Below are positions 29,109 through 61,947 of a stretch of DNA of 64,000 bases, piece by piece; position 1 is the first letter of the stretch; each line of letters begins with the position of its first letter. The notes beneath the pieces are model-generated. The model searched no databases, had not been told where the DNA came from, and saw nothing but the letters and a program-made list of their open reading frames with translations. A program made the translations under genes and the position numbers. Source of the stretch: Eledone cirrhosa (Eukaryota); assembly GCA_964016885.1 (NCBI GenBank), contig OZ024744.1:44702001-44766000 (forward strand), read 5' to 3'.

Positions 29109-29115
29109 GATAATA

Positions 29116-29210
<95 letters not shown>
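29109..29210. repeat. (TAA)n microsatellite, left border of the array
   Basis: Directly visible. Confidence 0.97.
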
Positions 29211-29212
<2 letters not shown>

Positions 29213-32200
29213 TGTCGGTGGGAACGAGGTAAACTGTAACACTTCGAATCCCAGAGTTGGGGCGGAATCACTGGCAACAGAACAAATTAAAGAAAGGAGC
29301 GAAAAAGTGGAGGGAGTGCATGCTCAGGATGAAACTCCAAATGAAAATAATGAGATCGTAAATGATAAAGAAATGAATGAGAATGAACTTGCCAACTTGA
29401 AGGATGAAATTATGATCGAATGGATGAAAATGAAAGAATCTGACATGGGGGAACGAGACACCCTCCCTAAGATCCAGAACTCCAAACAGAACCAAAAGAT
29501 AATACACAAGACTAACATAATTCTCAAAAACATTATCATCACAAACAAAATAAACATTACTGACTTAAATCATCTCTATTATGCATCGGCTAAAGTCACC
29601 ACTCACTTATGTGGAGTGAAGATGAAAAAACAAAGGAATTCCCACAAGAAATCTACTTGGCAAGATAACATCAATCGCCAAATAAACCTTCTCCGATCTG
29701 ACATAGAAATTTTAACAAACTATAAAGTAGGTGAACATGTTAAACAAACTAAACTTAGAAAATTGAAAAAAAAGTACAGTATAAGATCAACATGTGACAT
29801 AGACATGCTGATAGAAACAATCAAGCAAAAAGTGTCGGCCAAAGCTGCTCGTATAAGGCGCTTTGAAAAACGATCTAGATTCTATAAGGACAATAATATG
29901 TTCAAAAACAACCAAAGAAACTTCTACAGAAAAATTGGTAAGTCAACAATAACTGCTAAATCAATACCACCCAAGGAGGAAGTGCAAGAATTCTGGGAAA
30001 AGATCTGGGCCGAAGAAAAAGTTCATAACATACATGCCCCATGGATAGACAGACAAATGAAAGAAACAGCTCACCTTGAAGAACAAACATGGGAAAATAT
30101 AACAGTTGAACAGCTGCGCTTGGCTCTAAGAAAAACCAGCAAATGGAAATCCCCAGGAAAAGACAAAATACAAAACTTTTGGATAAATGCCTTCACAGAG
30201 TCTCATGAGCTGTTAGCCCAACTTTACAATGAAATAGTTAAGGAGCCAGAAAAGATACCATCATGGCTAGTTAACGGCATTACATTCCTGCTACCGAAGA
30301 ATGATGAGACAAACAATCCCAAAAATTACAGACCGATAACCTGCTTGACCACAATGTATAAAATTTTAACATCAGTCCTAACTGAATACACATATGACCA
30401 CCTGATAACAAATGACCTATTTCCCATTGAGCAGAAAGGGTGTAAACGAGGCTCATATGGCTGTAAGGATCAGCTTCTGGTTAACAAAATGATACTGGAA
30501 GATTGTCATAATAGACACAAAAATCTATCGATTGCTTGGATAGATTATAAAAAAGCATTTGATAGTTTGCCACACAGTTGGATTGAAAAATGTTTAGAGA
30601 TTTTCAAAATATCCCCCGTTGTCAGGAGGTTTTTGTCGTTCAGTATGAGGACATGGAGAACGACACTCCTTTTGAATAGTGAAACAAAATCACTGGAAGC
30701 TGGAGAAGTTAACATTAATTGTGGAATTTTTCAGGCTGACTCTTTATCACCGCTTTTATTCTGCATCGCACTTATACCATTAAGTAAAATGCTCAATGAA
30801 ACAAAACATGGATATAGAGTCTATGACAAAACCATTAATCACCTGTTCTACATGGATGACCTGAAACTATTTGCAAAAAATGATGAACAATTGCAAGGGC
30901 TATTATCCACTGTGAAGCAGTTCAGTGATGACATTAAAATGGAGTTTGGACTGGATAAATGCGCCAAAGCAACGTTCACCAGAGGAAAGCTGGTGAAGAG
31001 TTCAGACATTAATCTTGATCGGAGGAACGTGATAAGAGAGCTTGATCAAGAACAAACTTACAAATATCTAGGTCTTTGTGAAGGAGACGGAATCAAGCAC
31101 TCGACAATGAGGGAAAGGATAAGGAAGGAATGTTACCGCAGAGTCAGAGCAATCTTAAGAACGGAATTGAATGCAAGGAATAGGATCGATGCCATAAACA
31201 CGCTTGCCATACCAGTAGTAACCTACAGTTACAATGTCATCAACTGGTCAAGCACAGAGATCCGTAGGCTCGATACAAAAATCCGAAAATTCTTAACCAT
31301 GCACAGAATGCATCACCCTAAGGCAGACATAGATAGAATATATCTCCCTAGGAAAGAAGGAGGACGTGGGTTAATCCAGTTAGACATTGCGTTGAAAACT
31401 GCAACAATTGGATTATCCACATATCTAAGGGAATCACATGATTGGATGATCAAACTCGTTTTGAAACACGAAAGCACCAAAAGATCATATTCCATTACAA
31501 AAGATGCACAAAGTTACAGTAATGGACTACAAATTTCAGAAGTCCCATTTACTGCTGAAATGGAAAACACAGAAAAAGCAAAGCAGGTAAAAGTAACTGC
31601 AAAGAAAGAACTGCTACAGAAACTGGCTAAGAAATGGCAAGAAAAGCCTCTGTATGGAAAATACCCAGAGCGAGCTAACAATCCTGATGTTGACAAAACT
31701 TTAACCCATCAGTGGTTGGCATCCTCTGGACTGAAATCGGAGACTGAAGGACTGATTATATCCGCACAAGATCAGTGTCTGCCAACAAAAAATTACCAAG
31801 CCAACATAATAAAAAATGGGTGCAGCCCATTATGCCGTGTATGCAAAAAACAACCAGAGACCATTGACCATATAATTTCAATGTGCAGTCCTATAGCTCC
31901 AACCGAATACCTAAACAGGCATGACAGAGCTGCACAATACATACATTGGATAATGTGTAAGCATTTTGACCTGCCCCATCAAAAGAATTGGTGGGAGCAT
32001 CAACCACCTCCCATACTTGAAAAAGATCGCATCTCAATCTTGTGGAACTTTAGCATCCAAACAGACCGAAAAATAGATGCAAATAGACCTGATATAATAT
32101 TGAAGGACTTTCAAAGGAGGGTATGCCTGCTAATTGATATGTCTGTTCCAATAGACAAGAATGTATCTATAAAAACATTTGAAAAATTGAGCAAGTATAA

Positions 32201-32540
32201 GGACCTGGAGATAGAAATTGGAAAAATGTGGAAATTGAGAACTAAAACAATACCAGTGGTTGTAGGCGCTCTGGGAATGATACCTAAGGGGTCTAACGAC
32301 TACTTATCGCAAATCCCAGGAAACCCGCGTATAGGAGAAATACAAAAGATAGTACTAATGGGAACTGCCCATATACTAAGGAAGATCCTGTCAATATAAG
32401 TACATCACAAGTCTAAACACTAAGGATGCATGTGTGAATATGTGTGTTCTTTCTTGAAGATGGCGGACCTTGTTGTCTCTTGAGGTCACTGGTTGTGACT
32501 TGGTGATAACTCGTATAAACATAAAGCAAGATAAATGCAA
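29210..32540 (+). mobile_element. R4/Dong-like non-LTR retrotransposon family A, copy A1 (5'-truncated, young)
   Basis: Begins inside the ORF of full-length copy A2 (49510); ends gcaaataataataa; (TAA)n on both sides. Confidence 0.92.
29307..32399 (+). CDS. RT + CCHC + restriction-like endonuclease ORF (N-truncated, uninterrupted)
   Basis: [74 protein letters not shown]. Confidence 0.9.
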   Translation: MEGVHAQDETPNENNEIVNDKEMNENELANLKDEIMIEWMKMKESDMGERDTLPKIQNSKQNQKIIHKTNIILKNIIITNKINITDLNHLYYASAKVTTHLCGVKMKKQRNSHKKSTWQDNINRQINLLRSDIEILTNYKVGEHVKQTKLRKLKKKYSIRSTCDIDMLIETIKQKVSAKAARIRRFEKRSRFYKDNNMFKNNQRNFYRKIGKSTITAKSIPPKEEVQEFWEKIWAEEKVHNIHAPWIDRQMKETAHLEEQTWENITVEQLRLALRKTSKWKSPGKDKIQNFWINAFTESHELLAQLYNEIVKEPEKIPSWLVNGITFLLPKNDETNNPKNYRPITCLTTMYKILTSVLTEYTYDHLITNDLFPIEQKGCKRGSYGCKDQLLVNKMILEDCHNRHKNLSIAWIDYKKAFDSLPHSWIEKCLEIFKISPVVRRFLSFSMRTWRTTLLLNSETKSLEAGEVNINCGIFQADSLSPLLFCIALIPLSKMLNETKHGYRVYDKTINHLFYMDDLKLFAKNDEQLQGLLSTVKQFSDDIKMEFGLDKCAKATFTRGKLVKSSDINLDRRNVIRELDQEQTYKYLGLCEGDGIKHSTMRERIRKECYRRVRAILRTELNARNRIDAINTLAIPVVTYSYNVINWSSTEIRRLDTKIRKFLTMHRMHHPKADIDRIYLPRKEGGRGLIQLDIALKTATIGLSTYLRESHDWMIKLVLKHESTKRSYSITKDAQSYSNGLQISEVPFTAEMENTEKAKQVKVTAKKELLQKLAKKWQEKPLYGKYPERANNPDVDKTLTHQWLASSGLKSETEGLIISAQDQCLPTKNYQANIIKNGCSPLCRVCKKQPETIDHIISMCSPIAPTEYLNRHDRAAQYIHWIMCKHFDLPHQKNWWEHQPPPILEKDRISILWNFSIQTDRKIDANRPDIILKDFQRRVCLLIDMSVPIDKNVSIKTFEKLSKYKDLEIEIGKMWKLRTKTIPVVVGALGMIPKGSNDYLSQIPGNPRIGEIQKIVLMGTAHILRKILSI

Positions 32541-32558
32541 ATAATAATAATAATAATA

Positions 32559-33750
32559 GGCACGAGGTGACGGAGGTCATGAAATCGCTCCCGTAAGTTT
32601 TGAATTTTTAACATATTTAAATCATTTGTGAAATAACAACTCTTAGTACAAATGCTACGTAAAGCACCCGGCTTGAGCCCCAAAAAAATTCGGACCCAAA
32701 ATATATTGTTATAAGGCTCAAATATTCAAATATTCAACTTTGTATTGTACACTGTATATCCAAAAAAAAAAATGGCTATAAATGGAAGAAGAAGAACCCC
32801 CCCGCCCTCCTCTCCTCTGGCTACACTATATAGGACAGCTAAACTCACCAACACCAGAAACTAGATACACCACCCACCCCATCATCTGTGTACACTAAAC
32901 ACAACAGCATTTTCACCTTCACCGCCACCGCTCACTACGGCCATCATTACCACCACTATCCCATCACCGCCGCCACCACCCCTTGACTCCTTCACTGCTG
33001 CTGCCACCGCTACAGCACCATCACTATAGTAATACGGCTCAAATATTCAAATATTCAACTTTGTATTGTACACTGTATATCCAAAAAAAATAAAATGGCT
33101 ATAAATGGAAGAAGAAGAACCCCCCCCCCTCCTCTCCTCTGGCTACACTATATAGGACAGCGAAACTCACCAACACCAGAAACTAGATACACCACCCACC
33201 CCATCATCTGTGTACACTAAACACAACAGCATTTTCACCTTCACCGCCACCGCTCACTACGGCCATCATTACCACCACTATCCCATCACCGCCGCCACCA
33301 CCCCTTGACTCCTTCACTGCTGCTGCCACCGCTACAGCACCATCACTACAGTAATACGGTCGCATCACCGCCACCACTGCCTCGGTATCGACATCACCAC
33401 CACCACTGTCTCAGTATCGCCAACGCCGCCAGTCTCTGCTGGCTGCCACTTCCACATTATAGAATTCCTACTACTAACAAAGAGGAAGGCATCAAAATAT
33501 ATAGATAGACTCAAAAGAAAAAAGAAAAAACAAACAACAAAAGCAGCACAGCAACAACAGCAAAAAACGAGAAAAACAAACAGAGAAAAACAAAAACAAA
33601 AAAAGACACCCCAAAAACGTAAAGAAAATAAGAATGAAGAGAGAAGCAGGCGGACGGACAGAGAAGAGGGGGGAAAAAGTAAAACTTAAAAAACAAAAAC
33701 TAAGTCAGACATTCGAATACTACATTACAATGAAACTTATGCTTATTCAT
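32559..33750. repeat. Non-coding unit X (copy 1) with an internal 321-bp tandem duplication (32715-33035 / 33036-33359)
   Basis: Starts gcacgaggtgacggaggtcatgaaatcgctcccgtaag immediately after (TAA)n; homologous to 47905-48890. Confidence 0.8.
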
Positions 33751-33754
33751 TTTT

Positions 33755-36700
33755 GGGGCCCTTTCTGCCCGTGTGTTTGTTTGTTTATGTGTGTCCGTAT
33801 ACAGCGTGGTGATAATGCCACACAAGGGCCAAGTGGGATGGCGGATCCACAGATGGCTATGTAAACATACATTCGCCAATCCTCGATAAGAGTGTTTAAA
33901 TATCGAACATAAACAGTTCGAATAACGGTGAAATGGAGACTAGAACGTCATGTGACAGACTCTCACCCAACAGGTGCCCCCTGGCTCAGCAGCAGGAACC
34001 TGACTGTCAACCAAATACTGCTGATGTTGGAGGAAGAAGAAGAAGGAAAGGGGCCAGAACCAACTGGACGAAAGAATTGAATAGAACTGTTATGCAATGC
34101 TATCTGAAAAGTAACCCCAAGGAGAGGGGCTACAGGAGACGGATGCATAACATCTGGAACGAGATTGGTTTATTTAAATTAAATGAACAAAAATTGGCCG
34201 GGCAGGCTCGGGTAATAAGAACTAATGGGTGGATAAGCGAGCTGGAACTGGAGGAACTGAGCAGAGAGAATGGCTTGGAGATGGCGGGTGTAGTATGCCA
34301 GACAAGCGAGCCGGCGGGAAATGAAGGTGAGGAGGTCCTGAGAACGGAGGAACCACCCGAAGCAGACAATGATCTGAATACTGAGATAAATAATACCTGG
34401 AACAGAGATACGGCCACTGAGGAGATGAATGCTGACGGGCTAGGACAAGATTCGGTTGACATCCTAAATTTAGTGGTAGATGAGTTGAACAATGATAGTG
34501 GGAGACCTATGAATCTAAGATTTGTAGACAGGAAAAAGTTAAAAGAAACAACAGCTAAGGTAAACAAAGTCATCCCATACCTTGAGGCGAGGAGTCTTCA
34601 CCAGTGCAACAATATCCTCAAAGCAACAGCAAATACGGTGAGGAAACTACTTGGTATAAAAGCGAGAGGAAACAACAGACAAGAAAGAGCAGAGCCGTGG
34701 TGGAAGAAGCGACTGAGTGGGCAAATCGAGGAAATGAGAAATGACATAGGAAAGCTTGAGTCACTACTGAATGGGACACTAAAAAACATAGGCACTAAAA
34801 ATAGACTGGAAATAAAATACAAAACTAGGAGTAAAAAGCTAAATATTATCATAGAGGAATTGAAGCAACGCATTGTAGCAAAGAGTGCCAAAATCAGGCG
34901 ATACGAGAACAGAGTCAGTCAGTATAAACAGAACCGCATGTTCGACAACAACCAGAAGATGCTGTTTGGACAGCTTGAGGGGAAAGAAAGAGGCAACGAC
35001 TTGATCCCTGGGGCGGAACAAGCTAAAACATTCTGGAGAGGAATATGGGAGCAGGATGTTAGACACAATGCCCAGGCAGGGTGGATTGAGACAGTACAGA
35101 GGGAGATCGGTGAGCAGGCACAGCAACAGACTGATTTGAGTATCACAGTTGAAACTCTTAAGGGGCAAGCCAAAAAACTAACCAACTGGAAATCACCAGG
35201 CCCAGATGGTGTGCAGGGGTATTGGATTAAACATTTAACATCCCTCCACCCTAAGCTGACGGCCATGTTCAATGACTGCTTGGTGTCGGGTGAGGTGCCA
35301 GAGTGGTTGACAAAAGGTACCACAGTTCTGATAATGAAAGACCGAATCAAGGGTAATGATGTTACCAACTATAGACCTATCACATGTCTGCCCGTAATGT
35401 GGAAACTGTTGACGAGCATTGTGTCTGAGGAAATCTACCATCACCTCCACACAAACAACTTGTTGCCGGACGAACAGAAAGGATGCCGAAAGAAGTCACG
35501 TGGTACAAAGGACCAGTTGCTTATTGATAAGATGGTAATGGGGAATTGCAGGAGGAGACACACTGATCTTGCCATGGGATGGATAGACTACAGAAAGGCA
35601 TTTGACATGGTGCCTCATTCCTGGATCAGCAAAAGCCTGGAGATCTTCAGGGTGGCAGATAACATCAGACAGTTGCTGGGCAGGAGTATGGGTTCCTGGG
35701 AGACAGAGTTGACATCAACTGGAGTATCCTTGGGAAGCGTGAAGATCAAGAGAGGTATCTTCCAGGGAGATAGCCTGTCCCCTCTGTTGTTTGTCCTTGC
35801 CCTGATGCCCTTGACCATTATGCTGCGAAAAGTGAGAGCAGGATACAAGTTGGGAAGGGGAGAGCTTACCATCAATCACCTCCTCTTCATGGACGATCTT
35901 AAGCTCTTCGGGAAAAGTGAGAAGGAGTTGGATGTGCTTGTTGACACTGTCCGTATTTTCAGCAGTGATATATGTATGCAGTTTGGTATTGGTAAATGTG
36001 GAGTCATTGTGATGAGGAGGGGTAGGTTGAGCAGAAGTAACGGGATCCAGATACCAACAGGTGAGATGATAAAGGAAATTGACTCTGAGGAAGGATACAA
36101 GTATTTGGGCGTTCTGGAGGCTGATGGCATAAAGAACAAAAAAATGAAGGAATTGTTAAGAACTGAATACATTCGGAGAGTAAGGAGCGTATTGAAGTCA
36201 CATCTGAACAGCAGAAATGCCATAAGCGCAGTAAATTCCCGAGCTGTGTCTATTATTAGGTACAGTGCGGGAATTCTGAGATGGAATGTTGCTGAACAAA
36301 AAGAAATGGATAGGAAGACTAGGAAGCTATTGACTATCTACAACATGTTCCACAAGAGGAGTGATGTCGATAGACTCTACCTAAGGAGATCTGAGGGTGG
36401 AAGAGGTCTTATCAGCATAGAGGACTGTGTTCAGATGGAGAAAAACAACCTATACAAATACGTGACCTATAGTAAGGAGCCAATGCTCAGAGCTGTACTG
36501 AAGGAGGGGACAGTAGGCCAGGGGATATCCAAGGAGGAAATAACATCAAGGAGGAAGAGCAGCCTTAAGGGAAAATTCCTTCATAGTACCTTCTTTGAGA
36601 AAACTGAATTTAGAGATCCACAGACATGGAACTGGTTGAGAAGAGGAGACCTCAAAAAGGCTACAGAAGGAATGCTAATGGCTGCGCAGGAGCAGGCCCT

Positions 36701-37399
36701 CAAAACGAAGTGGTTGAAGCACCATATCTACAAGGAGGAGGCTAGCCCACTGTGCAGGATCTGTGGAGAGAGAGAGGAGACTGTGGCTCACATTGTGTCC
36801 GAGTGTAAACACCTAGCCCAGACCCACTATAAGGGCTGGAGACACGATGTGATGGGCAGGGTGATCCACTGGCACCTGTGCAAAGTAAACAATCTACCAC
36901 ATTCTGAGAAATGGTATGAGCATAGGCCAGAGGCGGTGATGGAGAACAGTCAGGTGAAGGTGCTGTGGGATTTTAGGATACAGACGGACAAAAAACTGGA
37001 ACACAATAGACCTGACCTGGTGGTTGTGGACAAAGAAAAAAGATCGTGCCTGATTGTGGATGTGGCCTGCCCGTTCGACACGAGAGTGCAAGAGAAGGAG
37101 AGGGAGAAAATTAACCGATACCAGGACCTAAAGTGGGAGGTGAAAAGGATTTGGAACTGCCATGAAGTCAAAGTGATCCCGATTGTCATAGGCGCACTGG
37201 GGACTATCTCCAAAGGTTTCCAGGGATGGTTAAAGAAAATCGGCCCCTTCACGCTTTTTGGAACGCTTCAAAAGGCATGCTTGCTTGGAACGGCAAGAAC
37301 CCTCCGATACGTCCTGAATATCTGAGGTTGCAGGTAGTGGCTTGATATTCAATCCAACGGACTTTCCAGTTAACCAACATCAATGACTGAGATTCAAGG
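33755..37399 (+). mobile_element. R4/Dong-like non-LTR retrotransposon family B, apparently full-length copy
   Basis: Short 5' UTR, single intact ORF, ~70-bp 3' UTR running into (TAA/CAA)n. Confidence 0.92.
33933..37325 (+). CDS. Intact 1130-aa RT + CCHC + RLE endonuclease protein (R4 clade)
   Basis: N-terminal [95 protein letters not shown]. Confidence 0.93.
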   Translation: METRTSCDRLSPNRCPLAQQQEPDCQPNTADVGGRRRRKGARTNWTKELNRTVMQCYLKSNPKERGYRRRMHNIWNEIGLFKLNEQKLAGQARVIRTNGWISELELEELSRENGLEMAGVVCQTSEPAGNEGEEVLRTEEPPEADNDLNTEINNTWNRDTATEEMNADGLGQDSVDILNLVVDELNNDSGRPMNLRFVDRKKLKETTAKVNKVIPYLEARSLHQCNNILKATANTVRKLLGIKARGNNRQERAEPWWKKRLSGQIEEMRNDIGKLESLLNGTLKNIGTKNRLEIKYKTRSKKLNIIIEELKQRIVAKSAKIRRYENRVSQYKQNRMFDNNQKMLFGQLEGKERGNDLIPGAEQAKTFWRGIWEQDVRHNAQAGWIETVQREIGEQAQQQTDLSITVETLKGQAKKLTNWKSPGPDGVQGYWIKHLTSLHPKLTAMFNDCLVSGEVPEWLTKGTTVLIMKDRIKGNDVTNYRPITCLPVMWKLLTSIVSEEIYHHLHTNNLLPDEQKGCRKKSRGTKDQLLIDKMVMGNCRRRHTDLAMGWIDYRKAFDMVPHSWISKSLEIFRVADNIRQLLGRSMGSWETELTSTGVSLGSVKIKRGIFQGDSLSPLLFVLALMPLTIMLRKVRAGYKLGRGELTINHLLFMDDLKLFGKSEKELDVLVDTVRIFSSDICMQFGIGKCGVIVMRRGRLSRSNGIQIPTGEMIKEIDSEEGYKYLGVLEADGIKNKKMKELLRTEYIRRVRSVLKSHLNSRNAISAVNSRAVSIIRYSAGILRWNVAEQKEMDRKTRKLLTIYNMFHKRSDVDRLYLRRSEGGRGLISIEDCVQMEKNNLYKYVTYSKEPMLRAVLKEGTVGQGISKEEITSRRKSSLKGKFLHSTFFEKTEFRDPQTWNWLRRGDLKKATEGMLMAAQEQALKTKWLKHHIYKEEASPLCRICGEREETVAHIVSECKHLAQTHYKGWRHDVMGRVIHWHLCKVNNLPHSEKWYEHRPEAVMENSQVKVLWDFRIQTDKKLEHNRPDLVVVDKEKRSCLIVDVACPFDTRVQEKEREKINRYQDLKWEVKRIWNCHEVKVIPIVIGALGTISKGFQGWLKKIGPFTLFGTLQKACLLGTARTLRYVLNI

Positions 37400-37429
37400 A
37401 ATAACAATAACAATAATAATAATAATAAT

Positions 37430-40400
37430 GATTTCTTTATTAACCACAAGGGTTTACATAAAGTAGACATTAAGGAGAGTGCAGGACAATACAGTACGGT
37501 ACAAATGGGCATTTCTGCGTGTAAAAAACAAAAACAGAGGATGTAACAAAACAAATAACAATGAAAAATTCCCCAATAGAGGGGAGACTTCGGAGGGACA
37601 TTTGTGGAGAAAGCCCATTAAAAGGCCACAGTGACCCTGACGACCAGGGCAAGTGCTCTCTCCCAGTTTTCCACCTTTAATTTACAGACACATACTCAGA
37701 GTAGGCCCATTCACTCGGCCATACTTGCTTCTCTCACCCATCTTTCAACAAAATGCTGGGAAGATAGCACTTCCGTCCTACACGTGACAGCAGGTGTTCG
37801 ACATAAACCCACAAGTCAGCAATGCTCGGACACTGGACGAGTGCGTGCAGGACGGTTTCGTCGCCCTGCACGCATCTCGGACATTCCCGGCTGACGGCAC
37901 CTCCATGCCTGTAGAGTTTATCCCGAACTGGCAAAGCTCCTCGGTAGCTCTGCCAGGCCAGGGATTTCTGGAAGTTGTCCATAGGCCCCGGCCCGAAAGC
38001 CCTTCCAAAGAGATTGGCTAGTTGATTTTCGTCGAGGCCTAGAGTTTCTCCAAGTACGTCTTCGCTCTTCCTCCCCACTAATCCTCTATAGAACGCCAAG
38101 GTGGAGTTTCCACCGATCACATTTCCCGATTGGTCGAGGGTTGTGAGCGCCTGAAGACATTCCAGTCTCCAAGCGCTCCCTCTCGGTCTTCGCTTGACCC
38201 AGGACTGCAGCTCCGTCAAGGAGACGAGCTGGGGAAAGACGCGTCTAGCAAACGGCGACCACACCTGATCACCGTCGAGGAAGAGGTGGAGATGTCGTAG
38301 CCTGAGCGCGTGTCTGCGCATCATCTGCCACGGCATACCCAGCCCTCCACGTAGCGGGTGTTGACAACAGATGGACCGCCTGACCATCGGAGCGCGTCCC
38401 TTCCACAAAAAGCGTAAGAGCAAACGCTCCAGCGCAGTCAGGCGGGGCTTAGGACAAGGTACGACGGTCAGGTGACGGACACGATGTACGCGTTAGCCAC
38501 CTCCGCTCGACCTTTCAGGGATAGCTTCCTCTCCGCCCATTTCTGGGTGAGAGAAGCCACCCTGCTCGTCACCTCATCCCAGTTTTTGTCCGTCTGGAGG
38601 TCCGGACCGAACCAGACCCCTAGCAATTTAACCGGTACGTCGGTCCAGGGCCCGACGACGCTGTTGTACGGCATGGACCTGCCTCTCCAGGTGCCGAGCT
38701 GCTGGCCCACTGACTTTTCCTGGTTGATCATTGCTCCTGTCACCGCTTCGTATTCTCTTAGTGTAGTGCCGATCGCCTCGATATGTTTGGCGTTCGACAC
38801 CACTACGGTGACATCGTCCGCATATGCTGACACGGATCTTCCGCATCCTAGTTCGCGCACGACCCCCCTCAACGTCTCCAGTTTGTACAGTAATGGCTCG
38901 AGAGTCAATACGTACAAGAGGGACGAGAGGGGACATCCTTGGCGAACCGAGCGAATGATGTCGAACGGTTCCGAAAGGTGACCGTTCACTCTCACCACAG
39001 AGCAGATGTCGCTGTGCATGGCAGCGATCCAGCCTCTGAAGACGGGCCCAAAGCCAGCCGCCCTCAGGACTGCCGCTATGTAACGATGGTCGACCCAATC
39101 GAAAACTTTCAACTGATCTAAATTGATCAAGGACCCACCCGTGCCAGGTTCCCTAGCTACCCTCTCTACGATGTATCGCATGAGGTCGAGGTTGTCGTGG
39201 ATGGATCTGTCGGGAATGTTATCGCCCTTGTTCGGATCCTTTCTCAGCAGCGCCACAGCTCCTCGGCTCACAGAGCTGGGAATTCTCCCGTTCTGTTGCG
39301 AGTTGCAGTGGACGTCCGCCAAGAGGCTTCCGAACAAATTTGGCGTCTGTACGTAAAGTTCATAGGGCAGACCATCCAAACCAGGCGATTTACGTCTTGT
39401 GCAGCCAGTCATTGCCTCCCGTACTTCAGCGGCTGTTATCGGCTTTTCGCAACACTCCGCCTCAGTGGCCGGGAGCCGCGGCAGTCCCTCAAGATAGACA
39501 CTAAAGTCCATCCCTCGATTCGGCCCGCCGCTGCCCCCGAACAGCTGGGCGAAGTGTCGCTGGAAAGCTTCACGCATTTTCCCGGGATCGAGTAGCATGC
39601 GCCCGTCGTGGTCCACCAAAGACCGGATCGTGGCTTTGTTGCCACGACGCGCCTCCGTCATTCGGGCCCATTGAACGGCTTTCGTCACCTTGTGTCTGAG
39701 AGTACGCACTCTAGCTCTGACAACGCAGCCTTCGTGCTTTGCATTGAAGAATTGATCAAGGGCCAATTTCGCCGCAAGTACGTCGGTCGCGATGCCTTTG
39801 CTAAGCGCCTCGTCTAATTTTCTAACTCGTTCTCCCTCTGCTCTATTTTTCTCTATTGCTATAGCCTTACTAAATCTAATGGACTCTATTCTAATCGCTC
39901 TTTTCTGAGCAAACCACCACTTGTAGTTGACGATGGCCCCCGTCAACGCTCGCTTAACTAGTTCGCTAATCCGGTCTCTGTAGGCCTTGCGCGCTGGTAA
40001 GGACGCGTTTAGCTTCCACTAGCCGGGTCCTCGTCTATGAAGCCTATCTAAGTCTAGCACACAGATCACGAATTTGTGGTCCGTGTGGCTGACTATCTTG
40101 AATTGTGGACAGCCCATTCTAGACCTATCTATTTCCCTACAAAATACTGTATCTAGATATTATCTGGATGACCCTATGCGATTTGTCCAAGTCCACATTG
40201 GCACATCGGGAAATCCAATCGGTACCTGTCAGACAGTTCAAAACGCCTGAGCAGGTTGGTTAAGGCTCTTGCACCCTCCTCCCCTATCTGCTAATGCCAC
40301 ACAGTCCCAGCGTGCATCTAAGATCCCTTTCCAGTCGCCCACTAACACTAAAGAGCGGGACGTTCCAAGAAAAGTCTCCAGACGCCAGAAGAAATCAGGC

Positions 40401-48890: not shown

Positions 48891-48893
48891 CGT

Positions 48894-51800: not shown

Positions 51801-52823
51801 AGTAATGGCCTACACATTTCAGAAGTCCCATTTACTGCTGAAATGGAAAACACAGAAAAAGCAAAGCAGGTAAAAGTAACTGCAAAGAAAGAACTGCTAC
51901 AGAAACTGGCTAAGACATGGCAAGAAAAGCCTCTGTATTGAAAATACCCAGAACGAGCTAACAATCCTGATGTTGACAAAACTTTAACCCATCAATGGTT
52001 GGCATCCTCTGGACTGAAATCGGAGACTGAAGGACTGATTATATCAGCACAAGATCAGGGTCTGCCAACAAAAAAATTACCAAGCCAACATAATAAAAAA
52101 TGGGTGCAGCCCATTATGCCGTGTATGCAAAAAACAACCAGAGACCATTGACCATATAATTTCAATGTGCAGTCCTATAACTCCAACCGAATACCTAAAC
52201 AGGCATGACAGAGCTGCACAATACATACATTGGATAATGTGTAAGCATTTTGACCTGCCCCATCAAAAGAATTGGTGGGAGCATCAACCACCTCCCATAC
52301 TTGAAAAAGATCACATCTCAATCTTGTGGAACTTTAGCATCCAAACAGACCGAAAAATAGATGCAAATAGACCTGATATAATATTGAAGGACTTTCAAAA
52401 GAGGGTATGCCTGCTAATTGATATGTCTGTTCCAATAGACAAGAATGTATCTATAAAAACATTTGAAAAATTGAGCAAGTATAAGGACCTGGAGATAGAA
52501 ATTGGAAAAATGTGGAAATTGAGAACTAAAACAATACCAGTGGTTGTAGGCGCTCTGGGAATGATACCTAAGGGGTCTAATGATTACATATCGCAAATCC
52601 CAGGAAACCCGCGTATAGGAGAAATACAAAAGATAGTACTAATGGGAACTGCCCATATACTAAGGAAGATTCTGTCAATATAAGTACATCACAAGTCTAA
52701 ACACTAAAGATGCATGTGTGAATATGTATGTTCTTTCTTGAACATGGCGGACCTTGTTGTCTCTTGAGGTCACTGGTTGTGACTTGGTGATAACTCGTAT
52801 GAACATAAAGCAAGATAAATGCA
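48894..52823 (+). mobile_element. Family A full-length copy A2 (pseudogenised)
   Basis: 5' UTR plus ATG at 49048 (KWSREDNKEV..Y N-terminal motif); frameshifts and stops near 50447, 50718, 51270, 51940, 52075; YMDN in place of YMDD; same 3' UTR as A1. Confidence 0.9.
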
Positions 52824-52845: not shown

Positions 52846-53637
52846 TAGAGATCCACAGACATGGAACTGGTTGAAAAGAGGAGACCTTAAAAAGGCTACA
52901 GAAGGAATGTTAATGGTTTCGCAGGAGCAGGCCCTCAAAACGAAGTGGTTGAAACACCACATTTACAAGGAGGAGGCTAGCCCACTGTGCAGGATCTGTG
53001 GAGAGAGAGAGAGGAGACTGTGGCTCACATTGTATCCGAGTGTAAACACCTAGCCCAGACTCACTATAAGGGCTCGAGACATGATGTGATGGGCAGGGTG
53101 ATCCACTGGCACCTATGCAAACTAAACAATTTACCACATTCTGAGAAGTGGTATGAACATAAGCCAGAGGCGGTGATAGAAAACGATCAGGTGAAGGTGC
53201 TGTGGGATTTTAGGATACAGACGGACAAGAAACTGGAACACAATAGACCTGACCTGGTGGTTTGGACAAAGAAAAAAGATTGTGCCTGATTGTGGATGTG
53301 GCCTGCCCATTCGACACGAGACTGCCAGAGAAGGAGAGGGAGAAAATTAACCGATACCAGGACTTAAAGTGGGAGGTAAAAAGGATTTGGAACTGCCATG
53401 AAGTCAAAGTGATCCCGATTGTCATAGGCGCACTAGGGACTATCTCAAAAAGTTTCCAGGGACGGTTAAAGAAAATTGGCCCCTTCACGCTTTTTGGAAC
53501 GCTTCAAAAGGCATGCTTGCTGGGAACAGCAAGAAACCTCCGATACGTCCTGAATATCTGAGGCTGCAGGTAGTGGCGTGATATTCATTTCAACAAACTT
53601 TCCAGTTAACTAACATCAATGACTGAGACTCAAAGAG
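52846..53637 (+). mobile_element. Family B 3' fragment (frameshifted) between (TAA)n-like tracts
   Basis: Homologous to 36611-37399. Confidence 0.9.
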
Positions 53638-53713: not shown

Positions 53714-53718
<5 letters not shown>

Positions 53719-55903
53719 TGTATAAAATTTTAACATCAGTCCTAACTGAATACACATATGACCACCTGATAACAAATGACCTATTTCCCATTGAGCAGAA
53801 AGGGTGTAAACGAGGCTCATATGGCTGTAAGGATCAGCTTCTGGTTAACAAAATGATACTGGAAGATTGTCATAATAGACACAAAAATCTATCGATTGCT
53901 TGGATAGATTATAAAAAAGCATTTGATAGTTTGCCACACAGTTGGATTGAAAGATGTTTAGAGATTTTCAAAATATCCCCCGTTATCAGGAGGTTTTTGT
54001 CATTCAGTATGAGGACATGGAGAACGACACTCCTTTTGAATAGTGAAACAAAATCACTGGAAGCTGGAGAAGTTAACATTAATTGTGGAATTTTTCAGGC
54101 TGACTCTTTATCACCGCTTTTATTCTGCATCGCACTTATACCATTAAGTAAAATGCTCAATGAAACAAAACATGGATATAGAGTCTATGACAAAACCATT
54201 AATCACCTGTTCTACATGGATGACCTGAAACTATTTGCAAAAAATGATGAACAATTGCAAGGGCTATTGTCCACTGTGAAGCAGTTCAGTGATGACATTA
54301 AAATGGAGTTTGGACTGGATAAATGCGCCAAAGCAACGTTCACCAGAGGAAAGCTGCTGAAGAGTTCAGACATTAATCTTGATCGGGGGAACGTGATAAG
54401 AGAGCTTGATCAAGAACAAACTTACAAATATCTAGGTGTTTGTGAAGGAGACGGAATCAAGCACTCGACAATGAGGGAAAGGATAAGGAAGGAATGTTAC
54501 CGCAGAGTCAGAGCAATCGTAAGAACGGAATTGAATGCAAGGAATAGGATCGATGCCATAAACACGCTTGCCATACCAGTAGTAACCTACAGTTACAATG
54601 TCATCAACTGGTCAAGCACAGAGATCCGTAGGCTCGATACAAAAATCCGAAAATTCTTAACCATGCACAGAATGCATCACCCTAAGGCAGACATAGATAG
54701 AATATATCTCCCTAGGAAAGAAGGAGGACGTGGGTTAATCCAGTTAGACATTGCGTTGAAAACTGCAACAATTGGATTATCCACATATCTAAGGGAATCA
54801 CATGATTGGATGATCAAACTCGTTTTGAAACACGAAAGCACCAAAAGATCATATTCCATTACAAAAGATGCACAAAGATACAGTAATGGACTACAAATTT
54901 CAGAAGTCCCATTTACTGCTGAAATGGAAAACACAGAAAAAGCAAAGCAGGTAAAAGTAACTGCAAAGAAAGAACTGCTACAGAAACTGGCTAAGAAATG
55001 GCAAGAAAAGCCTCTGTATGGAAAATACCCAGAGCGAGCTAACAATCCTGATGTTGACAAAACTTTAACCCATCAGTGGTTGGCATCCTCTGGACTGAAA
55101 TCGGAGACTGAAGGACTGATTATATCCGCACAAGATCAGTGTCTGCCAACAAAAAATTACCAAGCCAACATAATAAAAAATGGGTGCAGCCCATTATGCC
55201 GTGTATGCAAAAAACAACCAGAGACCATTGACCATATAATTTCAATGTGCAGTCCTATAGCTCCAACCGAATACCTAAACAGGCATGACAGAGCTGCACA
55301 ATACATACATTGGATAATGTGTAAGCATTTTGACCTGCCCCATCAAAAGAATTGGTGGGAGCATCAACCACCTCCCATACTTGAAAAAGATCGCATCTCA
55401 ATCTTGTGGAACTTTAGCATCCAAACAGACCGAAAAATAGATGCAAATAGACCTGATATAATATTGAAGGACTTTCAAAGGAGGGTATGCCTGCTAATTG
55501 ATATGTCTGTTCCAATAGACAAGAATGTATCTATAAAAACATTTGAAAAATTGAGCAAGTATAAGGACCTGGAGATAGAAATTGGAAAAATGTGGAAATT
55601 GAGAACTAAAACAATACCAGTGGTTGTAGGCGCTCTGGGAATGATACCTAAGGGGTCTAACGACTACTTATCGCAAATCCCAGGAAACCCGCGTATAGGA
55701 GAAATACAAAAGATAGTACTAATGGGAACTGCCCATATACTAAGGAAGATCCTGTCAATATAAGTACATCACAAGTCTAAACACTAAGGATGCATGTGTG
55801 AATATGTGTGTTCTTTCTTGAAGATGGCGGACCTTGTTGTCTCTTGAGGTCACTGGTTGTGACTTGGTGATAACTCGTATAAACATAAAGCAAGATAAAT
55901 GCA
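53714..55903 (+). mobile_element. Family A copy A3 (5'-truncated, near-identical to A1, frame open to 55763)
   Basis: Matches 30351-32540 with only a few substitutions; (TAA)n on both sides. Confidence 0.92.
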
Positions 55904-55933
<30 letters not shown>

Positions 55934-55935
<2 letters not shown>

Positions 55936-58900
55936 TTTCTTTATTAGCCACAAGGGCTGACATCAAGAAAAACATCACAGACGGAACAGGACGGTACGAT
56001 GTGGGTTTTGTGCGTGTAAATATTTTTATTATTTATATGAGAAAAGAAAAAAGACGTAAAACATATATATATATATATAAAATGAAAATTGAAACACTGA
56101 AAAATTCCCCAATAGGAGGGAAACCTCCGAGGGTTACTAATGGCGAAAACCACACAAAAGACCACGGCCACCCTGACTACCAGGGAAAGCGCCCTCTCTC
56201 AATTCTTCCATCTCTCAAACTACAGACGTATATTCAGAGTGGTCCCGTTCACTCGGACCATTCTCGCTACATTCACCCACCTTTCAACAATGCTAGAAGG
56301 CAGCACTTGCCTCTCCACCCTGATTTTCCTCTTCAAGTGAAACTTGAAAAAGTTAATTAGGGATTCGCCGAAGAGGAAAGTGTTTGTCTTAAATCCTTTT
56401 AACCTTGTCCACCACACAATCTCTTTCGCCATGGCCACCAGGCAGATGAAAACCGCCTGCCCTTCCTCCTCAAAGGAAGACGGCGAGACCATCTGCACAA
56501 TGGACTCAATCGACAACTGGATCAGTCCCACACGTGACAGCAACTGTTCGACATAGCTCCACAAGTCAGCAATGCTCGGGCACTGAACGAGTGCGTGCAC
56601 AACGGTTTCGTCGCTATGCGCGCATCTCGGACAGGCTCGGCTGACGGCACTTCCGTGCCTGTAGAGCTTATCTCGAACCGGCAGCGCTCCCCGGAAGCAC
56701 TGCCAGGCCAGGGATTTTTGGAAGTTATCCATAGTCCCCGAGCTGAAAGTTCTCCGGAAGAGAGCAAGCAGCTGATCTTCTTCGACGCCCAGGATCTCTC
56801 CGAGAATGTCGTCGCTCTTCCCCTCCACTAGTCCTCTATAGAACACCGAGGTGGATGTTCCACCGATACTGGTGCCCAACTGGGAGAGGGCAGTGAGCAC
56901 CTTGGGACATTCCAGATTCCAAGCACTATCCCTCGGTCTTTTTCTGACCCAGGACTGCAGCTCCGTCAAGGAGACGAGCTGTGGGAAAATGTGCCTGGCG
57001 AACGGCAACCACACCCGTTCACCATCAAGGAAGCACCATAGATGTTGCAGCTTCAGCGCATGTTTGCGCATCATTAGCCATGGCATGCCCAGTCCTCCAC
57101 GCAACGGGTGTTGACAGAAGATGGATCGTCTGACCATGGGAGCGCGTCCCTTCCACAAAAAGCGGAAGAGGAGGCGTTCCATTTTGGTGAGAGTTGGGCT
57201 GGAGCAAGGGACGACGGTGAGGCGGTAGCAGATGACGGATGCGATGTACGCATTCGCCACTTCCGCCCGGCCTTTCAGGGACAGCTTCCTCTCAGCCCAT
57301 TTTTGGGTGAGGGAGGCCACCCTGCTCGTCACCTCCTTCCAGTTTTTCTCCATCTGGAGGTCCGGTCCGAACCAGACCCCGAGCAATTTAGACGGTCCGT
57401 CCGTCCAACATCCACGACGCTGTCGGACGGCATGGACTTGCCTCTCCAGGTGCCTAACTGCAAGCCCACCGACTTTTCCTGCTTTATCTTTGCTCCTGTC
57501 ACCGTTTCGTATTCCTTGAGAGCGGTGCCGAGCATCTGGACGTGTCTGGTGCTCGACACCACCACGGTGACGTCGTCAGCGTAAGCCGATTCGGATTTCC
57601 CGCATCCTAGTTCGCGTGGGACGCCCCTCATCGCCCCCAGTTTGTGCAGTAACGGCTCGAGAGCCAATACGTACAAGAGGGACGAGAGGGGACAACCCTG
57701 GCGGACTGACCGCATGATGCTGAACGGCTGCGACAGGTGACCGTTCACCCTCACAACTGAGCAGACATCGCTGTACATTGCTGCGATCCAACGCCTGAAA
57801 ACGGGCCCGAAACCGGCTGCCTCGAGTACCGCCGCCAGGTACCGATGGTCGACCCTATCGAATGCTTTGGATTAATCCAAGTTGATCAGGGCCCCACCCT
57901 TGCCAGGTTCCTTAACCACCCTCTCTATGATGTATCGCATGAGGTGGAGGTTGTCGTGTATGGATCTGTCCGGGATGGCGCATGTCTGCGCCTCTCCCAC
58001 CAGACCCTTGACGACAAGCGCCAACCTCGTTGCTAACACCTTGGCCAAAATCTTGAACGCTGCGTTTAACAGGGTTATGGGCCTGAAATTACCAATAACA
58101 TCCCCCTTGTTCGGGTCTTTTCTCAGCAGCGCCACTGCTCCCCGGCTCACAAAACTGGGAATGCTCCCGTTCTGCTGCCAGTTGCAGTAGACGTCTGCCA
58201 AGAGGTCACCGAACAAGTCTGGCATAAATGCATAAAGCTCGTAGGGCAGACCATCTAAACCTGGCGATTTACCTCTGGTGCAGTTAGCCATCGCTTCCCG
58301 TATTTCACCGGCTGTTATTGGCTTTTCGCAACACTGTGCTGCGGTCGTCGACAGCCGAGGCAGTCCGTCGAGGTATGCACTGAAGTCCATGCCCCGATCC
58401 GGGCCGCCGCCGCTCCCGAACAGTTCAGCAAAGTGCTGCTGAAAAGCTTCACACATCCGCTCGGGTTCGAGCATCACGCATCCGTTTTGGTCAGACAAAG
58501 ACCGAATTGTGGCTTTGTTGCCACGTCGCGCCTCCGCCACCCGGGCCCATTGGACGGCTTTTGTCCCCTCGTGTTTCAGAGCACGCGCTCTAGCTCTGAC
58601 AACGCAGCCTTCGTGTTTTGCGTTGAAGAATTGGTCGAGTGCCAATCTCGCCGCAAGCACGTCGGTTGAAATGCTTTCCTAAACGCCTCTTCTAGCTTTC
58701 TGACTAGCTCTCCCTCTACTCTATTTTCCTCTATCACTACTCCTTTGCTAAACCTAATCGACTCTACTTTCATTGCCTTTTTCAGGGCGAACCACCACCC
58801 GTTGTTGACGACCGCTCCTGTCAACGCCCGCTTAACTAATACGCTAATCCGGTCTCTGTAGGCCTTGCGCGCCGAGAAAGACGCGTTCAGCTTCCAGTAA

Positions 58901-61900
58901 CCAGGCCCTTGTCTATGAAGTCTGTCTATGTCGATCTCACAGATCACAAATTTGTGGTCTGTGTAGTCGACTATTTTAAATTGTGGACAACTTATACTAG
59001 CCTTATCTAGTTCCCTGCAGAATATTCTATCTAGATACGATCTGGATGACCCGATACGGTTTGTCCAAGTCCACATTGGCACATTCGGGTGATCCAGTCG
59101 ATACCTGTCAGACAGTTCAAAACGTCTGAGCAGGTTGGTGAGGCTCTTGCACCCTCCTACCCTATCCACTAGCCCCACACGATCCCAGCGTGCATCCAAG
59201 ATACCATTCCAGTCGCCCACTAACACTAAAGAGCGGGACGTTCCAAGAAAGGTCTCTAGACGTCTGAAGAAATCTGGCTGTCCTGCCCCTGTTGGGGCGT
59301 AGACGGCTACTAGCCTGAAAGCATTGCCTTCGCTGCCGGTCACGTCCAGCACCACCGACTTACCTTCTGGGTCCAGGAAAATGGCCCGTATCGCGAGATC
59401 CAAGCCTCTCCGATAAGGACGGCAACCCCTCCCTCCGATCCTGGACGGCTGGGATATGCGTATACATAGTAGCCGCCGAAGATCGGTGCGAAGGCTCGTG
59501 CCTCGGAGATTCTGGTTTCACTGATGGCCACCACATCTATGTTTAGTGACCTGAGGTCATTGAGCAGGTGACCCTGCTTCCAAGATGACCCCAGGCCACG
59601 TGCATTTATACTGCCTATTCTGAGTACAGCCATGCTGGATGAGAAACGGGGAAAATGAGAAAGGGTCACTTACCTTGTTCGTGTGGTGAAGGGACAGTAG
59701 AACCGTCCCTTTCGCTGGTCATGGGTGTTTCCAAGAGGATGTCAGTGTATATCCTCTTGGTAACCGTCCCTCTGAAGTCTCCAACTGCGTTGGGGAATTT
59801 CTGTTTTAAAGGTTTGTATTGTTCTATTGAGATTTCGATGATGCTTAATTTTGTCGGGAGAGTTCTTGGTGTTGGTGGGGTGTAGTAGTTTTTTTCCGTG
59901 ATGTCTGTGTGCTGCTTTATATATTTTACGAGTTCTTTTTTTGCTATGTTTATGGCTGTGTACTTTTTTGGGGGAGGGGTGATTTTTTGCCGTTTTCTTC
60001 TTGTTGCTGTTTGGTGTGTGTGTCTTGTTGTTTTTGCGTTGTTGGTGTTTGTGGTGGTGTTGCTGCAAGTTTCCTTGCTGCCTTTACCCCTCTTTGTATG
60101 CCTTCGCTTTTGGAGGGTGAATCTAAGGGTTTTTTTCTTTTTTCTTTTTTGTGGCAGACTGTTTGCCACGTCACTCCCGCCTCAAACTCCATGTCGGATT
60201 CTGTGTCGTCTGGGAGGGGTATGTGCTCCCCGGCTGTTGGTGGTGGTAGTGGAGCCCTCTTCGGCAATGTTGTTACTGGTGTAGCTATTCAAATGTAGCT
60301 ATTGGTGTTGCCGCTGCTGATGATGCTGCTTTAGTTATCCGTGGCCTTGGTACGGGTGCTACGGACGTTGCCCTCCTACTCACCGTGGAAGGGGCTCTTC
60401 GTTTGTTGCCTGTCCTGCTCTTGGTAGCAGCGGACCAGGTATTGGAAGGAGAGGGACCTTCTTCGCTGTCTTCTGCGGGCAAATGGCCCTGAGGTGACCT
60501 TTCGACCCACAGAGATAACATTTTGGCCGTCTTCCTTCTACACTTATAGGGAGTTGGAGTCCTTCCTCAAAGTCTATGATATCGGGAATAGCCTCGATAC
60601 ATTCCTGGTCAGTTTGTATAAGCATTTGCATGCCTATACCTGACCAGTTCTCTCTCCCTATTTTTTCTATTTGCAGCATGGTCGCCCTGTTCTCAATTCC
60701 AGCAAGGGCAGACGCGGCCAGCCAAGGTATGGGCACGTTGGGTGGGACCTGGGTCACTTTGACCCTCACAATTTTCTGCCCGCAGTAGGAGGGCACCAAG
60801 ACTAACTCCTAACTCTTTAGGGTTTCCAAAGAGTGAGACTTTGCTTCATGGGGGGTGGCGAAAAGTACGTCTACTGTGGCGTACTTTCTGCCTCGGGTGA
60901 TGTGGGTTTTGCGTGGCCAGACGCACCCCAAGGCCTTTTGGATTTGAGCCTCGATGTGAGATTTTGCTTACGGTGCGGTAAGTCACCGTCCGTAGCTGCT
61001 GGTCCTTGAAAATATCGGGTGGAGGTTTCAGGGAAACTCTATTTGCGCTTCTTGTCACCATGACCCTTGCGACTGCCATCTCCTCCTCTGTGACTAACAC
61101 TGTCTCGATATTTCGGGCGACACCTGCAAAAGAAGTGGTCCCTTTTTCAGCAGCACCACTATTGCTGCCGCTACTGGTCTTACTGGTGGTGCTGAGGTCG
61201 GTATTACAGGTATCGGTGTCATTGTTGTTGTTTTCGCTGCTATAGTTGTTGGTGTTGTTTTCGTTGATACTGTTGCTGTTGTTACTGTTATTGTGGCTGT
61301 TGTTATTATTGTTGTTTCTGTTGATACTGTTCCTACTATTATTGTTGTTGTGGCTGTTGTTATTGTCATTGTTATTGTCGTTCTCGACCTTACCGCTGTT
61401 ATTGTTGTTATTGTCGTTCTCGACTTTACCGCTGTTATTATTGTTATTGTCGTTCTCGACTTTACCGCTGTTATTTTTGGTGTTGTTGTTGGTGATGTTG
61501 TTGGTGTTATTGTTGGTGTTGTTTGTGTTAGAAATATTTGTTAATTTTAAATCTGTAACAATCTTCTTTTCCTTTGTAATATTTTCGTTTATATTTACCT
61601 CAGCTGGAACGCTGTCTTATTGACATGCTGATAAAGTCTCCCTCTCTCCGTGTTGTCTGACAGCGCTCTCTGTCTTTTTTGTGTTATCCATGTTTTAAAT
61701 TTTTCAAAAAATATTTTTACCCAAATACCAATAGGACACCCCGTAAAGGGGTGCCGTATTATTTACTAGTGAACCCCTGTATTAGGTGGGTCACTTCTTC
61801 TAAACTTTTATCAAATTTAAAACTTGAATAAAAGGTTTAGAACGGTTGAAAAAGAGGTAAAACGTTGAAAAAGACTGGAGGCGATAAGAAGCGTGGCTTC

Positions 61901-61907
61901 ACCAACC
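55934..61907 (-). mobile_element. Tx1-like LINE T3, full-length, decayed
   Basis: ORF1 fragments with intact CCHC knuckle CYLCGSKGHLRAICP; ORF2 from 59633 (APE, RT YADD, CPRC..ETVVHAL); termini in (TTA)n, as for T1. Confidence 0.9.
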
Positions 61908-61947
61908 AATAATAATAATAATAATAATAATAATATTAATATTAATA
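61908..61947. repeat. (TAA)n microsatellite, right border of the array
   Basis: Directly visible. Confidence 0.95.

What the first reader, a model, noticed from the sequence alone, without database searches (positions are those of the whole stretch)
29109..61947. A 33-kb polarised retrotransposon array grown inside one (TAA)n microsatellite
Seen: ten LINE copies from two clades are stacked end to end, and most junctions are (TAA)n (29109, 32540, 37400, 43005, 47487, 47778, 52823, 53638, 55904, 61908). All seven R4/Dong-like copies face + and all three Tx1-like copies face -. No element is nested inside another, and the unit ages differ. Known: Dong (R4 clade) inserts into TAA repeats. Inference: each insertion regenerates target sequence, so unrelated endonuclease types (RLE and APE) share one self-renewing landing pad with opposite strand rules.
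Basis: partly seen in the sequence, partly recalled or inferred. Interest (0 to 1): 0.82.

Follow-up and report, generated by a model that had tools for sequence, protein, structure and literature searches.

The report
Opposite-facing retrotransposons stacked on TAA repeats
Ten jumping genes of two unrelated kinds are stacked end to end over 33 kb at short TAA repeats, one kind always facing forward and the other backward, likely because each kind starts its insertion on a different strand of the repeat and leaves usable repeat behind; each habit is known separately, but the TAA target appears new for one of the two kinds.

Summary
Observation confirmed, with corrections. Ten LINE copies fill 32,338 of 32,839 bases. 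Seven are Dong-like (restriction-like endonuclease, families A and B, all +) and three are Tx1-like (APE endonuclease, all -). Ten of 11 junctions are (TAA)n; T2|B2 (47041) is blunt, so 'one microsatellite' is unproven. Reads from two individuals show (AAT)n upstream of this leader in 9,839 of 35,512 and 15,012 of 42,825 laid reads, mostly from other copies, so Dong targeting holds elsewhere. Tx1 targeting rests on 2 of 2 full-length copies here, plus a sister clade with the same 3' end and no TAA. Best reading: both kinds insert into the repeat, priming on opposite strands, and each insertion leaves more usable tracts. Repeat regeneration is inferred; no target duplication, empty site or long read was seen. 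Known parallels: Dong in (TAA)n, microsatellite-specific Tx1 (Kibi, Koshi), and TRAS/SART facing opposite ways in telomeric repeats. This scan already noted the same pattern at eight other places in this genome. New variant of a known kind.

The parts
29118..29210 (+). (TAA)31, left boundary tract; 5' flank of A1, not the tail of any element
29211..32541 (+). A1: Dong-like family A, 5'-truncated, uninterrupted 1062-codon frame (RT, CCHC, RLE motifs)
32542..32556 (+). (TAA)5 between A1 3' end and the B1 leader
32557..33932 (+). Leader (likely 5' UTR) of B1, with an internal 322-base duplication; first ~370 bases 74% like the A2 leader
   Evidence: assignment to B inferred from position and for the A2 leader
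33933..37400 (+). B1: Dong-like family B, intact 1130-aa ORF (predicted Myb-like N-terminus, RT, CCHC, RLE) and short 3' UTR ending in degenerate TAA units
37414..37428 (+). (TAA)5, tail-to-tail junction B1|T1
37430..43004 (-). T1: Tx1-like, both ends present, ORF1 + ORF2 broken by stops, frameshifts and two internal deletions
43005..43034 (+). AAT tract with one ATT variant; T1 5' end against T2 3' end
43035..47041 (-). T2: Tx1-like, 5'-truncated in the end of ORF1; ORF2 with APE, RT and C-terminal part, broken; joins B2 bluntly with no TAA
47042..47486 (+). B2: 3' fragment of family B (91% like B1), followed by (TAA)8 at 47501-47524
47525..47777 (+). B3: 3' fragment of family B (99% like B1), followed by (TAA)30 at 47791-47880
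47895..49047 (+). Leader (likely 5' UTR) of A2; preceded by (AAT)n in thousands of reads from other copies; holds a ~50-base high-copy repeat remnant at about 48750-48800
49048..52822 (+). A2: full-length family A copy with frameshifts and stops (97% like A1), followed by a short imperfect TAA tract 52823-52846
52847..53637 (+). B4: 3' fragment of family B (94% like B1), followed by (TAA)23 at 53647-53715
53716..55905 (+). A3: 5'-truncated family A copy, 9 differences from A1 in 2190 bases, followed by (TAA)9 at 55906-55932
55934..61907 (-). T3: Tx1-like, both ends present, ORF1 + ORF2 broken
61908..61947 (+). (TAA)8 plus imperfect units, right boundary tract; 5' flank of T3, not the tail of any element

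Best explanation
The array is a pile of ten retrotransposon copies of two unrelated kinds at (TAA)n tracts, likely built by repeated independent insertions in which Dong-like elements prime on the TTA strand and Tx1-like elements on the TAA strand, which would fix their opposite orientations. Shown: the copies, their strands, their different ages, and TAA at 10 of 11 junctions. From established knowledge (target-primed reverse transcription): the strand nicked first sets the orientation. Inferred: the Tx1-like APE nicks the (AAT)n strand at a T/A step, and the primer end can pair 2 bases with the conserved element end (...AATCAT); the Dong enzyme nicks the (TTA)n strand. Each insertion splits one tract into two. 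Tracts of 4-9 units persist, and family B brings 3-5 degenerate TAA units in its own 3' end, so a site that has been hit once offers more targets and grows by positive feedback. No partnership between the clades is needed. The blunt T2|B2 junction is likely a deletion, made at insertion or later.
For: 8 of 10 5' ends abut TAA, against 54 of 31,150 outside positions. Both outer tracts are 5' flanks, one of a Dong copy and one of a Tx1 copy. Both full-length T copies read (ATT)n-GG...AATAAA..ATC-(ATT)n. In reads of two individuals, 9,839 of 35,512 and 15,012 of 42,825 laid reads run from the Dong leader into (AAT)n (agreement 0.94 and 0.93); only 782 and 832 of the laid reads are 99%+ like this copy. 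Four of five truncated Dong 5' junctions are joined to TAA, three with 1-2 shared bases. The sister clade of T (100/100) has the same 3' end in 36 of 38 loci and 0 TAA/TTA runs in 448,924 bases, so the repeat is not an ancestral tail. Literature: Dong in (TAA)n (PMC7998251, PMC3774820); SART1 needs only three repeats, and swapping endonucleases swaps targets (PMC7265360).
Against: The T2|B2 junction has no TAA and no read was shown bridging it. Eight of 10 tracts can also be read as a neighbour's tail. No target-site duplication could be identified. T flanks at other loci were not seen, because rows at repeats were dropped. The 38 sister loci overlap and come from one assembly, so they are not independent. 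The reads are reduced-representation, may include duplicates, and give no locus count. No empty allele and no long read were available (no genome held).
Confidence: 0.72

Rival explanations
1. The strand rule comes from RNA-DNA pairing rather than from endonuclease strand choice. T transcripts would be cut 10-30 bases after their AATAAA signal, inside the flanking (ATT)n, so the RNA ends in AUU repeats that can pair only with a nicked (AAT)n strand. Dong read-through RNA ends in UAA repeats and pairs only with the other strand. This would also deliver new repeat units with each insertion.
For: AATAAA lies only 6-7 bases before the repeat in 3 of 3 T copies, and no poly(A) is present. All 4 B copies share degenerate TAA units at their 3' end. 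The 10-30 base cleavage distance is recalled knowledge.
Against: The sister clade keeps the same terminus without any repeat. In TRAS/SART the endonuclease is the main determinant (PMC7265360, passages). The two mechanisms are not exclusive.
Confidence: 0.35
2. T elements have only a loose liking for AT-rich, T/A-step DNA, or for the ends of resident Dong copies; the repeat is a tail or a by-product, and the array is a passive hotspot where selection does not remove insertions.
For: Only 2 full-length T copies were seen, and T1's 5' tract is also T2's 3' tract. T2 has no TAA at its truncated 5' end. Some Tx1 families target other transposons (PMC4494074, section read).
Against: T3's 5' tract borders unique flank, not a Dong copy. 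Two of two by chance is about 3e-6. The T copies are more decayed than the Dong copies they touch, so they are likely older.
Confidence: 0.12
3. The 33-kb continuity is partly artificial: two smaller arrays were fused by a deletion at T2|B2, or the assembly was mis-joined at TAA tracts or through the near-identical A1 and A3.
For: Blunt junction at 47041; A1 and A3 99.6% identical over 2.2 kb; no record spans the stretch.
Against: No Ns; every unit has its own sequence and truncation point; leader-TAA junctions are real in raw reads. A fusion would not remove the polarity in either half.
Confidence: 0.15

Closest known systems
Dong and Dong-like R4-clade elements (Bombyx mori; ostracod Dong1/2; mollusc and cnidarian relatives) - PMC7998251, PMC3774820, passages read
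   Same: Single ORF with RT and C-terminal CCHC + restriction-like endonuclease, no N-terminal zinc fingers, (TAA)n target in the same orientation (5' junction TAA|G).
   Different: Here two families only 37% alike in protein share a long leader; no HDV-like ribozyme was detected at the 5' end, unlike Bombyx Dong (crude test); they pile up with an APE element.
Kibi (TC)n, Koshi (TTC)n and crocodilian Tx1 families in (TTCC)n/(TTTC)n - PMC4494074, passages and section 15 read
   Same: Two-ORF APE elements of Tx1 type that sit in a microsatellite; tandem insertion around a target is described there for SINEU-3.
   Different: Target here is (ATT)n, AT-only, and is shared with an RLE element from the other strand. 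Relationship to Kibi/Koshi was not tested (no named sequences on hand).
TRAS and SART in (TTAGG)n of Bombyx mori - PMC7265360, PMC10088271, passages read
   Same: Two families in one simple repeat in opposite directions, forming arrays; a few repeats suffice as target.
   Different: Both are APE elements of the R1 clade and are telomeric; here an RLE and an APE element share an interstitial microsatellite.
5' UTR recruitment and exchange among mouse L1 families - PMC3600994, passages read
   Same: Divergent families carrying a shared or exchanged 5' leader, as families A and B do here.
   Different: Here the hosts are RLE elements; the donor of the leader could not be established from this window.

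Membership tests
R4 clade / Dong (families A, B) | Single ORF: RT followed by CCHC finger and PD-(D/E)xK-type endonuclease | tested here: met
   RVT_1 hits; CCHC, RHD, RPD..D...P and K..[KR]Y motifs in A1 and B1; best solved relatives are R2 proteins, E 5e-30
R4 clade / Dong (families A, B) | No N-terminal zinc fingers (unlike R2, NeSL) | tested here: met
   No finger pattern in the first 200 residues of full-length B1; A1 is truncated and uninformative
R4 clade / Dong (families A, B) | N-terminal Myb/SANT-like domain | tested here: inconclusive
   Model pLDDT 80; Foldseek no hit at E<=0.001; VIA top rows Z 5.1-5.8, below the tool's trust level of 8, though 8 of the first 11 are Myb/SANT-type or the R2 N-terminus by my recall of those proteins
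R4 clade / Dong (families A, B) | (TAA)n target, repeat on both sides, same orientation | tested here: met
   6 of 7 copies have TAA at the 5' end and 7 of 7 at the 3' end; reads from other copies
R4 clade / Dong (families A, B) | RT phylogeny with named R4/Dong sequences | not testable with these tools
   Homologues returned carry no family names; A and B group 100/100 apart from the APE elements
Bombyx Dong proper | HDV-like self-cleaving ribozyme at the 5' end | tested here: inconclusive
   No Rfam match at gathering level in 28500-64000; my descriptor found 1 hit in the window, outside the array, but was not checked on a positive control
Tx1 clade (T1-T3) | Two ORFs; ORF2 with APE, RT and C-terminal zinc-binding region; ORF1 with a zinc-knuckle-like motif | tested here: met
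   Exo_endo_phos, RVT_1, zf-RVT; ORF1 aligns with sister ORF1 through a CxxC..H knuckle, E 6e-10 and 5e-8
Tx1 clade (T1-T3) | RT phylogeny with Tx1/Keno rather than L1 | tested here: inconclusive
   T clade groups with elements inserted in U2 and U1 snRNA genes (Keno-like target) at only 84/85 support; no named Tx1 or animal L1 in the tree
Tx1 clade (T1-T3) | Target specificity (same flank in more than 20% of copies, the rule in PMC4494074) | tested here: inconclusive
   2 of 2 full-length copies in the window; genome-wide flanks not seen
Kibi / Koshi | (TC)n or (TTC)n target | tested here: not met
   Flanks are (ATT)n
TRAS/SART-type system | Two families in one simple repeat in opposite orientation | tested here: met
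   7 of 7 Dong +, 3 of 3 T -
TRAS/SART-type system | Both partners APE elements of the R1 clade in telomeric (TTAGG)n | tested here: not met
   One partner is RLE; the repeat is TAA; flanks are ordinary repeat-rich DNA

The most novel reading that the evidence does not exclude
A Tx1 lineage whose sister clade builds same-strand arrays without any microsatellite has switched to (ATT)n and so moved into Dong's ancient niche from the other strand. The mixed, self-amplifying arrays are then the main safe havens of both clades, grow by preferential attachment, and are the places where the clades trade parts, such as the leader shared by two Dong families.
Probability: 0.3. Interest if true: 0.62.

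Novelty: new variant of a known kind. Interest (0 to 1): 0.38.

Why it matters
It gives a natural pair of unrelated nucleases (APE and RLE) reading one three-base repeat from opposite strands, and a sister Tx1 clade with a different target. That is a direct test bed for how APE endonucleases change specificity, and for endonuclease versus RNA-pairing control of insertion. Positive feedback at such tracts could explain LINE hotspots like those reported in Octopus vulgaris, where Dong-R4 and L1-Tx1 are among the most recently active LINEs (PMC13282606). The concept itself is established by TRAS/SART and Kibi/Koshi, so it extends a known theme.

Tried and rejected
No whole genome is held, so the genome-wide flank table and empty-site search could not be run. 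(1) Leader as a + strand Tx1 5' end that would break the polarity rule: rejected as a separate element, since it sits directly before both full-length Dong ORFs and contig depth runs on into the A ORF. Its descent from a Tx1 5' UTR, proposed in earlier scan notes, could not be confirmed here: z 1.8-3.2 against shuffles, but a reverse-complement control reached 4.0, and profiles gave no cross-hit. (2) B2-B3 as a tandem duplication: rejected, since B3 is 99% like B1 but 89% like B2. (3) Loose ends with mixed flanks at 37109 and 39753: they coincide with AATT sites and are likely library ligation products, not truncated copies with random flanks. (4) The leader pattern had 0 matches in metagenome contigs; a T relative found no loci there; the 4 viral-contig hits were not followed. 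(6) A possible host exon at 19507-19662 had no homologue. (7) Foldseek of the N-terminal model gave no hit at E<=0.001. (8) The supplement of PMC4494074 could not be read.
Full report
Observation. The ten TAA tracts exist at the stated coordinates, all on the + strand, with 128 pure units in all. The window has no Ns. Outside the array there are 3 runs of four or more TAA/TTA units in 31,150 bases, and inside it no TTA run. Self-comparison resolves ten units covering 32,338 of 32,839 bases, in the order A1+, B1+, T1-, T2-, B2+, B3+, A2+, B4+, A3+, T3-. Of the 11 junctions, 10 are TAA. The eleventh, T2|B2 at 47041, is blunt: T2 is cut off in the end of ORF1 and B2 starts inside its ORF. Ages differ. 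A1 and A3 differ at 9 of 2190 bases, and A2 is 97% like them with frameshifts. B1 has an intact 1130-aa ORF; B3, B4 and B2 are 99.2, 93.8 and 91.1% like B1. T1-T3 are 72-81% alike and all broken.

What the units are. A and B are 37-39% identical in protein. They have RT, a CCHC finger and restriction-like endonuclease motifs, and B1 has no N-terminal finger. Their best solved relatives are R2 proteins. The B1 N-terminus folds confidently (pLDDT 80). Its closest folds are mostly Myb/SANT domains, but only at Z 5.1-5.8, and Foldseek found nothing significant. This fits the published Dong anatomy (PMC7998251, passages) without proving it. T1-T3 have ORF1 with a knuckle-like motif and ORF2 with APE, RT and a zinc-binding end. 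In an RT tree of 47 rows (segments under 180 residues would have been dropped) they group with P0121 at 100/99. That group is sister (100/100) to elements in loci L005-L042, eukaryote-type DNA inside a bacterial MAG record. Both sit in a weaker group (84/85) with elements inserted in U2 and U1 snRNA genes. This is compatible with the Tx1 clade, but no named reference was on hand. I did not establish the host; 'likely an octopus' comes from unchecked earlier notes.

Both full-length Dong copies begin with a 1.1-1.4-kb leader directly after TAA, and the two leaders are 74% identical over 369 bases. Laying contigs and reads on the A2 leader shows summed depth running on from the leader into the ORF, so it is likely the 5' UTR, shared by two very divergent families. 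Earlier notes call it captured from Tx1. My tests with the two T 5' ends in this window were inconclusive. No ribozyme was detected (crude test). A ~50-base piece of a very high-copy repeat lies inside the A2 leader.

Target or tail? Eight of 10 tracts could be a neighbour's 3' tail. The two outer tracts cannot; one is a Dong 5' flank and one a Tx1 5' flank. Eight of 10 5' ends abut TAA, against a 0.17% background. For Dong, reduced-representation reads from two other samples (about 85-90% of each run read) give outside support. In all, 9,839 of 35,512 and 15,012 of 42,825 laid reads continue from the leader start into (AAT)n, with agreement 0.94 and 0.93; a further 2,841 and 3,711 do so from 47894 at 0.73-0.76. 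Only 782 and 832 of the laid reads are 99%+ like this copy. Another 2,157 and 2,638 reads show a different leader start, whose flank was not displayed. Only the top loose-end rows were shown, duplicates are possible, and the number of loci is unknown. For T, the equivalent rows were dropped at repeats, so the evidence is 2 of 2 full-length copies here (chance about 3e-6) plus the sister clade. The sister elements end in the same AATAAA..ATCAT motif in 36 of 38 loci, lie all on one strand (134 of 134 long hits), and have 0 TAA/TTA runs in 448,924 bases. These loci overlap and come from one assembly. The T end is therefore conserved and the (ATT)n is lineage-specific.

Mechanism. By target-primed reverse transcription (established knowledge), the strand nicked first fixes orientation. 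The T junctions are in phase with a nick at a T/A step of the (AAT)n strand, and the primer end could pair 2 bases with the element end (inferred). Dong would use the (TTA)n strand. Each insertion turns one tract into two. Tracts of 4-9 units survive, SART1 needs only three repeats of its own target (PMC7265360, passages), and all 4 B copies carry degenerate TAA units at their 3' end. A hit site thus likely becomes a better target. True regeneration by duplication was not observed. The main rival is RNA-DNA pairing: AATAAA lies 6-7 bases before the repeat in 3 of 3 T copies, so the RNA may end inside the repeat. Loose AT preference and a fusion or mis-join at T2|B2 are less likely but open, as no long read or empty allele was available.

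Comparison with what is known. Dong in (TAA)n: PMC7998251 and PMC3774820 (passages). Tx1 families in (TC)n, (TTC)n, (TTCC)n and (TTTC)n: PMC4494074 (passages and section 15; its target figure is an image and its supplement could not be read). Opposite orientation in one repeat: TRAS/SART, PMC7265360 and PMC10088271 (passages). Target specificity by clade: PMC4640811 (passages). Active Dong-R4 and L1-Tx1 and hotspots in Octopus vulgaris: PMC13282606 (first third of the text and passages); PMC9115989 (passages). 5' UTR exchange: PMC3600994 (passages). Kojima and Fujiwara 2004 and Xiong and Eickbush 1993 were seen only as citations. Eight searches found no paper on an ATT-targeting Tx1 or on an RLE and an APE element sharing a microsatellite. 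The library lacks most subscription papers and Repbase, so this is weak.

Verdict. It recombines known habits; the new points are the ATT target for a Tx1-like lineage, its sharing across clades, and a sister clade without the repeat. The scan noted the same pattern at eight other places in this genome, the leader in seven notes and a parallel CATA system in two; these are unchecked notes, not independent support. New variant of a known kind; interest 0.38.

Noticed in passing
window 22821-23486, 25939-26475, 26476-28717 (+): Three decayed copies of a third RLE family (30-35% like A/B in protein, 86-89% alike) end in (CATA)n, and 2 of 3 also have CATA at the 5' end; two are head-to-tail through a CATA tract 400 bases from the TAA array. 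A 17-base piece of it sits between CATA tracts near 22268.
   Followed up: partly
window 32557-33932 and 47895-49047: Leader shared by Dong families A and B, although their proteins are only 37% identical; B1's copy has a 322-base internal duplication; reads show further leader variants around a conserved core.
   Followed up: partly
L005-L042: A bacterial MAG record holds contigs of eukaryote-type DNA made of same-strand head-to-tail Tx1-like arrays (unit about 6.5 kb, several subfamilies), with a conserved sequence and no poly(A) or microsatellite at the joins; likely mis-binned host DNA.
   Followed up: partly
L043, L046, L057: Tx1-like elements whose 3' ends abut partial U1 (L043, L046) or U2 (L057) snRNA genes, in MAG records, likely host DNA; U1 looks like a specific target.
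   Followed up: partly
window about 30732 and 54096: A1 and A3 both read QAD where homologues conserve QGD in the RT (A2 has QGD), so they likely share one recent source copy.
   Followed up: no
window 8856-10385 (-) and 5188-5682: Penelope-like GIY-YIG ORF remnants.
   Followed up: no
window about 23750-25900 (-): Decayed hAT-like DNA transposon (DUF4371 hit).
   Followed up: no
window 19507-19665 (+): Possible 53-codon host exon with splice-like ends; no homologue found.
   Followed up: partly
window about 48750-48800: Remnant of a very high-copy short repeat inside the A2 leader (summed contig depth about 1.5 million against about 50,000 beside it), with a related piece at 16194-16246.
   Followed up: no
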